A stretch of 64,000 nt of DNA from Escherichia coli (GTDB taxonomy: Bacteria > Pseudomonadota > Gammaproteobacteria > Enterobacterales > Enterobacteriaceae): assembly GCF_003334385.1 (NCBI RefSeq), contig NZ_QOWN01000005.1; one strand, 5' to 3'. Of this stretch, positions 35,658-35,697 are shown one piece after another (the stretch's first letter is position 1; each line of letters begins with the position of its first letter). The position numbers and the translations under genes were made by a program. The notes beneath the pieces are model-generated. The model saw only the letters and a list, made by a program, of their open reading frames with translations. It was not told the DNA's origin and did not search any database.

Positions 35658-35697
35658 GCTAAGGTTGAAGGGGCGTTCCAGCCCCTTCAACCTTAGC
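35658..35697. other. Perfect 16-bp inverted repeat (stem-loop) abutting the yabPQ stop codon
   Basis: gctaaggttgaagggg-cgttccag-ccccttcaaccttagc; no U-tract on the coding (minus) strand side. Confidence 0.7.

What the first reader, a model, noticed from the sequence alone, without database searches (positions are those of the whole stretch)
35658..35697. Perfect 16-bp-stem palindrome placed exactly at the yabPQ stop codon
gctaaggttgaagggg / ccccttcaaccttagc form a flawless inverted repeat with a 6-8 nt loop starting at the first base after the TAA. There is no U-tract on the coding-strand side, so it is not a canonical intrinsic terminator; it could be an RNA-stability element, an RNase III site, or a protein-binding palindrome. 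It is unusually perfect for an E. coli intergenic hairpin.
Basis: seen in the sequence. Interest (0 to 1): 0.3.

Follow-up and report, generated by a model that had tools for sequence, protein, structure and literature searches.

The report
Fold-back scar of a truncated IS
The perfect hairpin after the yabPQ/espY1 stop codon is a rearrangement scar: 17 bases of a truncated insertion-sequence transposase gene were copied backwards onto themselves, so it is a tidy molecular fossil rather than a purpose-built regulatory signal.

Summary
Arms 35658-35674 and 35681-35697 form a perfect 17-bp stem with a 6-nt loop (about -33 kcal/mol). It is the most stable local fold and the longest perfect inverted repeat in the 64 kb. 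It directly abuts the TAA of the minus-strand yabPQ/espY1 ORF.

Positions 35325 to about 35680 are the remnant of an ISEc13-like (IS4/Tn5-family) insertion sequence. The left arm and loop are transposase codons (A-K-V-E-G-A-F; 15/17 and 4/6 identical to ISEc13). Homology stops in the loop. The right arm matches ISEc13 at 4/17, is absent from all five ISEc13-like copies whose sequence spans this point, and puts an in-frame TAG into the transposase frame. So it is an inverted copy of the left arm made at the truncation point, most likely by fold-back (snap-back) synthesis.

The palindrome is single-copy and present in 2072 of 5426 complete E. coli genomes. The stems are intact in at least 2067. 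The known variants are two loop changes, one gene-conversion patch from ISEc13 that breaks one stem pair, and one 44-nt deletion.

There is no U-tract on the espY1 strand. The opposite strand has a terminator-like tail (TTATTCT). The one Term-seq supplement held as text lists no 3' end here, so any function is untested and probably incidental. Interest is low to moderate.

The parts
35658..35674 (.). Left arm of the palindrome. It is transposase coding sequence of the IS remnant (codons Ala-Lys-Val-Glu-Gly-Ala on the + strand).
   Evidence: 15/17 identical to ISEc13. The protein alignment runs through AKVEGAF versus AQVEGAY.
35675..35680 (.). Loop GTTCCA. The last bases still homologous to ISEc13 (GTACC) lie here, so this is the breakpoint zone.
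   Evidence: 4/6 identical. The only two point variants identified in the population lie here: T35677C in 12 genomes and +C in 40 genomes.
35681..35697 (.). Right arm: a reverse-complement copy of the left arm that is not part of the IS.
   Evidence: 4/17 identity to the ISEc13 continuation, and 7/17 at best in any register. Absent from the five ISEc13-like copies that span this point. In the transposase frame it reads Q-P-L-Q-P-TAG.
35698..35705 (+). T-rich tail TTATTCTG after the stem on the + strand. Its first three bases are the complement of the espY1 TAA.
   Evidence: One search lists 35658-35697 plus this tail as terminator-like on the + strand only.
35325..35680 (+). Remnant of an ISEc13-like IS4/Tn5-family insertion sequence: left end, leader, and the first ~58 codons of the transposase with frameshifts and a stop.
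   Evidence: 88% identity to ISEc13 over its first 336 nt. PGAP annotates a 'transposase DNA-binding-containing protein' pseudogene at the equivalent of 35503-35681.
35325..35343 (+). Left terminal inverted repeat of the IS remnant (CTGCCTCTTGTACATAAAT; 15/19 identical to ISEc13 CTGTCTCTTATACACAAGT).
35503..35680 (+). Decayed N-terminal (DNA-binding domain) coding part of the transposase.
   Evidence: Three-frame translation. BLASTP against the ISEc13 transposase N-terminus gives 63% identity, E 2e-24. Weak NCBIfam IS4_FS_Nterm hit.
35698..36504 (-). yabPQ / espY1, a pentapeptide-repeat T3SS effector gene. It is intact here at 268 aa, and its stop TAA (35700-35698) abuts the right arm.
   Evidence: RefSeq annotations of orthologues. 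C-terminal frames compared.
35291..36798 (.). The whole island (IS remnant + palindrome + espY1 + its upstream region). It replaces the REP-containing rluA-djlA spacer found in genomes that lack it.

Best explanation
The palindrome is the junction scar left where an ISEc13-like insertion sequence was cut off about 58 codons into its transposase gene. SHOWN: the left arm and most of the loop are transposase coding sequence. Homology to ISEc13 stops in the loop. The right arm is a perfect reverse-complement copy of the left arm, does not occur in any intact relative, and places an in-frame stop in the transposase frame. INFERRED: a broken or stalled 3' end inside the gene folded back on itself. 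A GCC end could pair with GGC six bases upstream. The end was then extended for about 14-17 nt using its own strand as template and joined to the DNA just beyond the espY1 stop codon, deleting the rest of the IS. This is snap-back or template-switch repair. The perfection therefore reflects copying, not selection. As a by-product, RNA from either strand acquires a hairpin of about -33 kcal/mol. On espY1 mRNA it is a 3' stem-loop without a U-tract, so at most a 3'-exonuclease barrier, which is the role of the REP elements the island displaced. On the opposite strand it is followed by UUAUUCU and could terminate transcripts entering from the IS/rluA side. Neither RNA role has been demonstrated.
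For: The window region 35380-35679 matches ISEc13 at 88% on many plasmids, and the match ends in the loop. It matches query positions 1-336 of ISEc13 in E. coli genomes. Base-level identity to ISEc13: left IS part 283/321, left arm 15/17, loop 4/6, right arm 4/17, beyond 7/23. The five ISEc13-like copies that span this point all continue GCCTGAT[G/A]CGTAACCC, and none has the right arm. The translated remnant aligns with the ISEc13 transposase N-terminus through AKVEGAF (E 2e-24). The right arm then reads QPLQP-stop. The three differences from ISEc13 near the junction (Q->K, a synonymous Gly change, Y->F) are conservative, and the two in the arm are mirrored in the right arm, so they predate the copying. 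ISEc13 had no pre-existing quasi-palindrome: the reverse complement of its arm matches its own continuation at 7/17 at best. Strain Z1323CEC0014 carries a gene-conversion patch of ISEc13-type alleles from about 35508 to 35661 that ends inside the left arm. This confirms the arm is IS DNA. The palindrome is single-copy per genome and occurs only at this locus. RefSeq annotates a truncated IS4/Tn5 transposase pseudogene ending at the equivalent of 35681. Snap-back synthesis that produces inverted templated insertions at deletion junctions is a described repair outcome (PMC5728401, found).
Against: No pre-event allele was found, neither an intact IS of the remnant's own lineage nor an espY1 locus without the IS. 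The breakpoint, the priming microhomology and the joining partner are therefore inferred. The GCC/GGC priming pair requires a 1-nt difference from the ISEc13 sequence. The stems are intact in at least 2067 of 2072 genomes, and both identified point variants fall in the 6-nt loop. Sampled haplotypes show about 6.6% variable sites in the flanking IS remnant against 0 of 40 in the palindrome. This hints at some constraint or at arm-to-arm correction, and a purely neutral scar does not predict it. By my own calculation the chance probabilities are only about 0.02-0.07.
Confidence: 0.75

Rival explanations
1. Co-opted RNA element. Whatever its origin, the hairpin is now maintained by selection as the 3'-end-forming or stabilising stem-loop of espY1 mRNA, and/or as a terminator that shields espY1 from antisense transcription coming from the IS/rluA side. 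This is compatible with the scar origin. It is a rival only to the claim that the hairpin is functionally incidental.
For: The hairpin is very stable on both strands. It is terminator-like on the + strand. It sits between convergent genes where island-free strains carry REP elements. Stems are intact in at least 2067 of 2072 genomes. Both identified point variants (12 and 40 genomes) lie in the loop. Thirteen haplotypes show 0 of 40 substitutions in the palindrome against 22 of 333 in the adjacent IS remnant.
Against: There is no U-tract on the espY1 strand. The Adams et al. 2021 supplements, as held, list no 3' end or TSS at the corresponding K-12 coordinates. The palindrome is equally intact in K-12-type strains where yabP/yabQ is a frameshifted pseudogene. 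Natural strains tolerate a 44-nt deletion of it and a stem mismatch. The conservation statistics are weak (P about 0.02-0.07). Recent origin, hairpin-templated correction, or higher mutability of the loop could explain them equally well.
Confidence: 0.3
2. Hairpin-opening footprint (P-nucleotide type). A transposase or nuclease sealed a double-strand end inside the IS into a covalent hairpin, which was later nicked off-centre and left a palindromic extension.
For: By established knowledge, IS4/Tn5-family transposases work through DNA hairpin intermediates. The element involved belongs to that family.
Against: Tn5/Tn10 hairpins form at the transposon termini, not 355 bp inside the element. Off-centre opening of a covalent hairpin gives a spacer-less palindrome, whereas here 6 non-palindromic bases that continue the IS sequence separate the arms. 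Seventeen nucleotides is also very long for such a footprint.
Confidence: 0.05
3. Remains of two inverted IS copies, as in a composite transposon around espY1. The right arm would be a 17-nt leftover of a second, oppositely oriented copy.
For: The IS remnant lies at the edge of the espY1 island with its outer end facing rluA, as in a composite transposon.
Against: This needs two independent truncations ending at the same transposase codons. No other ISEc13-like sequence or terminal repeat exists in the window, with up to 3 mismatches allowed. The sequence to the right of the arm is espY1 coding DNA with random-level identity to the IS (7/23).
Confidence: 0.04
4. A protein-binding or recombination-site palindrome, such as an operator or a resolvase/integrase site.
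For: Perfect dyad symmetry.
Against: The arms derive from coding sequence by duplication. The site is single-copy. It lies at the 3' ends of convergent genes with no promoter-like site nearby. No recombinase gene is adjacent. There is no Rfam or other family match.
Confidence: 0.03

Closest known systems
Snap-back (fold-back) templated insertions at deletion junctions (synthesis-dependent microhomology-mediated end joining; PMC5728401), and Roth-type snap-back junctions of tandem inversion duplications in Salmonella (the latter from my own knowledge)
   Same: An inverted copy lies directly next to its template and is separated from it by a short loop. It sits exactly at a deletion or truncation breakpoint, with a possible 3-nt priming microhomology (GGC/GCC).
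   Different: These events were described experimentally mainly in Drosophila and Pol-theta systems, or as unstable amplification intermediates. Here it is a fixed natural allele in E. coli. The enzymes are unknown, and the pre-event sequences were not recovered.
Quasipalindrome template-switch mutagenesis in E. coli (Ripley model; Lovett laboratory; my own knowledge)
   Same: An intramolecular template switch copies one arm of a hairpin onto the other and produces perfect palindromes.
   Different: That process perfects a pre-existing imperfect inverted repeat. ISEc13 has none at this site (best 7/17), and here the event is coupled to loss of the rest of the IS.
ISEc13 (IS4/Tn5 family) insertion sequence
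   Same: The first ~355 nt are 88% identical, including the terminal repeat, the end-proximal hairpin and the transposase N-terminus.
   Different: This is only a decayed 5' fragment. There is no DDE domain, right end or target duplication. The right arm of the palindrome is not IS sequence.
REP/BIME elements between convergent genes
   Same: A stable stem-loop lies in the 3' region between convergent genes (rluA/espY1-djlA). Island-free strains have REPs at this very spacer. A role as a 3'-exonuclease barrier is plausible.
   Different: The sequence is unrelated, and the palindrome is single-copy per genome. It is derived from an IS rather than from the REP family.
Rho-independent and bidirectional terminators
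   Same: A G+C-topped stem, with a U-rich tail on the + strand, sits between convergent transcription units.
   Different: There is no U-tract on the espY1 strand. The 17-bp stem is longer than usual. The held Term-seq tables support no 3' end here.

Membership tests
Intrinsic terminator of espY1/yabPQ (- strand) | G+C-rich stem-loop directly downstream of the gene | tested here: met
   17-bp stem, -33 kcal/mol, starting at the first base after the TAA.
Intrinsic terminator of espY1/yabPQ (- strand) | U-tract within 0-2 nt after the stem | tested here: not met
   The tail is AGUAGCGUGG. The scan reports the site on the + strand only.
Intrinsic terminator of espY1/yabPQ (- strand) | Mapped RNA 3' end at the stem base | tested here: inconclusive
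   No entry for yabP/yabQ or coordinates 5927x-5933x in the Adams 2021 supplements as held. Other data sets are not held. By my own knowledge the gene is poorly expressed in K-12.
Intrinsic terminator on the + strand (IS/rluA-side transcripts) | Stem followed by a T-rich tail | tested here: met
   TTATTCTG, 5 T in 8. Listed by the consensus scan.
Intrinsic terminator on the + strand (IS/rluA-side transcripts) | A transcript that actually reaches it | tested here: inconclusive
   No +-strand sigma-70-like site in 34500-37000. No TSS at K-12 5946x-5951x in Adams 2021. A strong-looking terminator at 35340-35368 lies upstream.
REP/BIME | Multicopy family with the REP consensus | tested here: not met
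   One locus per genome. The arm occurs only here in the window. The sequence is unlike the REPs of the empty site.
ISEc13-like IS4/Tn5-family element | Terminal inverted repeat of the Tn5/ISEc13 type | tested here: met
   35325-35343 is 15/19 identical to the ISEc13 end and in register.
ISEc13-like IS4/Tn5-family element | Transposase N-terminal DNA-binding domain | tested here: met
   63% identity to the ISEc13 transposase, E 2e-24. The NCBIfam IS4_FS_Nterm hit is weak and below cut-off (E 0.042). PGAP pseudogene annotation.
ISEc13-like IS4/Tn5-family element | DDE catalytic domain, right end, target-site duplication (a complete element) | tested here: not met
   Homology ends at about 35680. 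There is no second end in the window. It is a remnant only.
Snap-back / template-switch junction | Template arm contiguous with parental sequence; copy arm inverted, adjacent and absent from the parent | tested here: met
   Identities 15/17 versus 4/17. The five IS relatives that span this point lack the right arm.
Snap-back / template-switch junction | Priming microhomology at the fold-back point | tested here: inconclusive
   GGC (35672-74) and GCC (35681-83) could pair. ISEc13 has ...CC-GCC, so a 1-nt difference is required.
Snap-back / template-switch junction | Pre-event alleles of both partners | tested here: inconclusive
   Not found in representative genomes, E. coli genomes or metagenomes.
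Quasipalindrome correction | Pre-existing imperfect inverted repeat in the parental sequence | tested here: not met
   The reverse complement of the ISEc13 arm matches its own downstream sequence at 7/17 at best.
Any Rfam RNA family | Covariance-model match | tested here: not met
   Only a chance-level plant miRNA hit (12 bits against a gathering score of 160, E 8.2) on 35658-35697.
RNase III processing site | Cleavage of the double-stranded stem in vivo | not testable with these tools
   A 17-bp perfect helix is shorter than the roughly two helical turns typical of good substrates (my own knowledge). No cleavage data are available.

The most novel reading that the evidence does not exclude
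A fold-back repair scar created during truncation of an IS was fixed in over a third of E. coli, including K-12. It has since been domesticated as a two-way RNA hairpin: a 3' stabiliser for the espY1 effector mRNA and a terminator against antisense read-in. It would take over the job of the REP elements that the island displaced. It would also be natural fossil evidence for snap-back templated end joining in E. coli.
Probability: 0.2. Interest if true: 0.45.

Novelty: new member of a known kind. Interest (0 to 1): 0.27.

Why it matters
It explains an eye-catching feature of the E. coli K-12 genome, the strongest local hairpin in this 64-kb stretch. The cause is a mutational mechanism, not a regulatory design. 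It is also a reminder that perfect palindromes next to mobile-element remnants may be repair scars. It gives a clean natural example of an inverted templated junction in a bacterium that lacks classical NHEJ. It shows that rluA in these strains probably ends at a terminator supplied by the IS end. Natural variants (a loop substitution, a loop insertion, a stem mismatch and a 44-nt deletion) provide ready-made strains to test whether the hairpin affects espY1 expression in EHEC/EPEC.

Tried and rejected
- **Rfam scan of 34500-37000 at E <= 10:** only chance-level hits.
- **Second IS end or another copy of the arm in the window:** none found. One search used the ISEc13 end with up to 3 mismatches and was too strict even for the real left end, which has 4 mismatches, so I repeated it with the window's own end.
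- **EspY1 relatives in the species-representative genomes, to look for an IS-free context:** only one E. coli-like contig, mislabelled as a Collinsella MAG, with the same architecture.
- **Protein search for EspY paralogues:** the top 120 hits were all EspY1 orthologues, so I could not test whether the junction truncated the ORF.
- **Metagenome scan for an intact IS carrying the window-type left arm and loop followed by a base other than A:** 12 hits, all unrelated chance matches.
- **Closer relatives of the remnant among ISEc13-like elements in E. coli genomes:** ISEc13 proper (88%) remains the closest. The other variants are more distant.
- **Term-seq and TSS supplements:** nothing at this locus in Adams 2021 or in the TERMITe supplements. 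The Dar & Sorek and Herzel supplements are not held.
- **Literature on ISEc13, ECs0073 and espY1:** nothing about this junction.
- **Half-palindrome searches to enumerate every stem variant:** Four of the 57 variant genomes remain uncharacterised.
- **Rejected readings:** chance; REP/BIME; quasipalindrome correction; covalent-hairpin footprint; two inverted IS copies; operator-type palindrome.

Full report
**Observation**

The window is the E. coli rapA-rluA / yabPQ(espY1)-djlA / lptD region. At 35658-35697 there is a perfect inverted repeat. The arms are GCTAAGGTTGAAGGGGC (35658-35674) and GCCCCTTCAACCTTAGC (35681-35697), separated by GTTCCA.

- The stem is 17 bp with a 6-nt loop, not 16 bp with 8 nt.
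- The 40-mer folds at -33.0 kcal/mol (- strand) and -33.9 kcal/mol (+ strand), with z about -8.7 against shuffles.
- In a sliding 46-nt fold of all 64 kb on both strands it is the most stable structure: -35.1, against -29.3 for the next best and a mean of -9.3 with sd 4.1.
- It is also the longest perfect inverted repeat, 17 bp against 13 bp for the next.
- Chance expectation is about 3e-5 (my arithmetic).

The - strand ORF 35698-36504 is an intact 268-aa YabPQ/EspY1. Its TAA (35700-35698) touches the right arm. The tail on that strand is AGUAGCGUGG, with no U-tract. On the + strand the stem is followed by TTATTCTG, and the consensus scan lists it as terminator-like on that strand only.

**What the surrounding sequence is**

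RefSeq annotates a frameshifted, C-terminally truncated 'IS4/Tn5 family transposase DNA-binding protein' pseudogene between rluA and yabQ/espY1. It ends at the equivalent of 35681, which is inside the palindrome.

BLAST of 35380-35720 against plasmids hits ISEc13 (IS4 family) in about 280 records at 88% identity. The match always ends at query position 300, which is window 35679. ISEc13 used as query against E. coli genomes matches the orthologous locus over its first 336 nt only.

Alignments show the remnant starts with the IS terminal repeat at 35325: CTGCCTCTTGTACATAAAT, 15/19 identical to ISEc13 CTGTCTCTTATACACAAGT. It continues through an end-proximal hairpin and the leader into the transposase start at 35503. 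Allowing for two frameshifts and a stop codon, the translation aligns with the ISEc13 transposase N-terminus at 63% identity (E 2e-24), through ...SSHATAKVEGAF versus ...SSQSTAQVEGAY.

**Anatomy of the palindrome relative to the IS**

| Segment | Identity to ISEc13 |
|---|---|
| IS end to 35657 | 283/321 |
| Left arm | 15/17 |
| Loop | 4/6 |
| Right arm | 4/17 |
| Next 23 nt | 7/23 |

- The left arm and loop are therefore transposase codons, and homology stops in the loop.
- All five ISEc13-like copies whose sequence spans this point continue GCCTGAT[G/A]CGTAACCC (encoding R-L-M/I-R-N-P). None contains the right arm.
- In the transposase frame the right arm reads Q-P-L-Q-P-TAG, so it cannot have belonged to a functional gene.
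- ISEc13 has no latent inverted repeat here: best 7/17.
- The three differences from ISEc13 near the junction are conservative or synonymous (Q>K, Gly GGT>GGG, Y>F). The two that lie in the arm are mirrored in the right arm.
- The right arm was therefore copied from the left arm as it then stood in a functional ISEc13 relative.

Strain Z1323CEC0014 provides a natural experiment. A patch from about 35508 to 35661 has been converted to ISEc13-type alleles, which removes the frameshifts. The patch ends inside the left arm and creates a single stem mismatch, A35661C. This confirms that the arm is IS DNA and still recombines with ISEc13.

**Most likely mechanism of origin (inferred)**

A break or stalled 3' end inside the transposase gene folded back on itself. 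The bases GCC (35681-83) can pair with GGC (35672-74) across the 6-nt loop. ISEc13 has ...TACC-GCC here, so this needs a 1-nt difference. The end was then extended on its own strand for 14-17 nt. It was joined, or switched template, to DNA immediately 3' of espY1, with loss of the rest of the IS.

This matches snap-back synthesis at deletion junctions (PMC5728401). From my own knowledge it also matches template-switch and tandem-inversion-duplication junction models in enteric bacteria.

I rank the alternatives lower:
- **Covalent hairpin opening.** This would leave no non-palindromic spacer, and Tn5-type hairpins form at element ends.
- **Two inverted IS copies.** This needs two matching truncations, and no other IS sequence is present.
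- **Quasipalindrome correction.** There was no precursor repeat.

**Population picture**

The island 35291-36798 is present in about 2086 of 5426 complete E. coli genomes. Genomes without it have a spacer of about 110-150 nt between the rluA and djlA stop codons. That spacer is filled with REP elements, and homology breaks exactly at the two stops.

The palindrome context occurs once per genome, in 2072-2073 genomes:

| Variant | Genomes |
|---|---|
| Canonical 46-mer | 2015 |
| Loop substitution T35677C | 12 |
| Extra C in the loop (O145:H28 and others) | 40 |
| Other single difference, one being the ISEc13 conversion patch | 5 |
| 44-nt deletion 35643-35686 between TCA microrepeats (O157 SS TX 313-1) | 1 |

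The 44-nt deletion is the kind of slippage that palindromes provoke.

Across 13 sampled haplotypes the adjacent IS remnant has 22 variable sites in 333 nt, and the palindrome has no substitutions in 40 nt. By my calculation P is about 0.07. Both identified point variants fall in the 6-nt loop, which gives P of about 0.02.

This is a hint of stem maintenance, but it is weak. Hairpin-templated correction or greater mutability of the loop could explain it equally well.

'Exactly at the stop codon' holds only for one allelic frame...LLNEPE-TAA. O157 and GF3-3 alleles read a different frame because of indels in a 15-nt repeat, and they stop at TGA 10 nt earlier.

**Function**

Nothing demonstrates a function.
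- On espY1 mRNA the hairpin lacks a U-tract. It could at most block 3' exonucleases after downstream termination, which is what REPs do at the same spacer in island-free strains.
- On the + strand it looks like a moderate intrinsic terminator.
- An apparently strong terminator sits upstream at 35340-35368, and no + strand promoter or TSS was found between the two.
- The Term-seq and TSS tables of Adams et al. 2021, as held, list nothing for yabP/yabQ or for K-12 coordinates 5927x-5933x. Other data sets were not available.
- The palindrome is equally intact where yabP/yabQ is a pseudogene, as in K-12.
- There is no Rfam match.

I therefore regard the RNA roles as incidental possibilities. I give about 0.3 to the idea that the hairpin is under selection.

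**Comparison with known kinds, and verdict**

The closest known kinds are listed below.
- **Snap-back templated junctions.** Same anatomy, but here fixed in nature and in E. coli.
- **Quasipalindrome template switching.** Same copying logic, but no precursor repeat.
- **ISEc13.** The parent of the left arm.
- **REP/BIME elements.** Same genomic niche, but an unrelated family, and this element is single-copy.
- **Intrinsic or bidirectional terminators.** The form is met on one strand only.

The feature is real and non-random, and it is now explained as a repair scar at the end of an IS remnant. It is a new example of a known kind of event, with low to moderate interest (0.27). The most novel reading still open is domestication as a two-way RNA hairpin. 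I give that a probability of about 0.2.

Noticed in passing
window 35340-35368: The canonical-looking terminator after rluA (AAATCCCCGAGTCCGGGGATTT + TTTTGTTTC) lies inside the IS remnant and is conserved in ISEc13 itself (AAGTCCCCGAATCCGGGGATTTGTTATTTC). In island-bearing strains, rluA is therefore probably terminated by a hairpin supplied by the IS end.
   Followed up: partly
window 35291-36798; L010 3302-3450; L012: The IS remnant + espY1 island replaces, from stop codon to stop codon, a REP/BIME-filled rluA-djlA spacer of about 110-150 nt that is present in about 3300 E. coli genomes. The djlA stop is TGA with the island and TAA without it.
   Followed up: partly
L025 about 3210-3370 (strain Z1323CEC0014); window 35508-35661: A gene-conversion patch of about 155 nt from an ISEc13 copy has overwritten the decayed remnant and removed its frameshifts and stop. 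It ends inside the left arm of the palindrome.
   Followed up: yes
L008 about 2490-2500 (O157:H7 SS TX 313-1); window 35643-35686: A 44-nt deletion between TCA microrepeats removes the left arm, the loop and part of the right arm. It looks like palindrome-stimulated slippage.
   Followed up: partly
window 35842-35938 and 35747-35801: Two 15-nt tandem arrays, one encoding pentapeptide repeats and one an ATKKV/ATEEV-like tail, vary in copy number between strains. This gives EspY1 lengths from about 233 to 286 aa and two alternative C-terminal frames. The K-12 yabP/yabQ split is a frameshift in this gene, whereas the window's copy is intact.
   Followed up: partly
proteins P0001, P0011, P0028 and others; plasmid record AP026530.1: Many database entries call this pentapeptide-repeat effector 'UDP pyrophosphate phosphatase'. 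This looks like a propagated misannotation.
   Followed up: no
L003 about 1990-3050 (strain SW070919); L011 3597-4577 (strain 13TMH22): Secondary IS insertions occur at this locus. IS903B sits in the 3' part of espY1 in one strain. IS621 sits in the REP-containing spacer of an island-free strain.
   Followed up: no
L013 (contig JAIJJM010000692.1, labelled Collinsella sp. MAG): A 1.6-kb contig in a Collinsella metagenome-assembled genome carries the E. coli rluA / IS remnant / espY1 locus. This almost certainly reflects binning contamination.
   Followed up: no
window 60436-60481 (+), 43558-43603 (+), 54436-54481 (-), 11197-11242 (-), 10715-10774: These are the next most stable local hairpins in the window (-29 to -25 kcal/mol), together with an AT-rich imperfect palindrome. 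I did not examine them.
   Followed up: no
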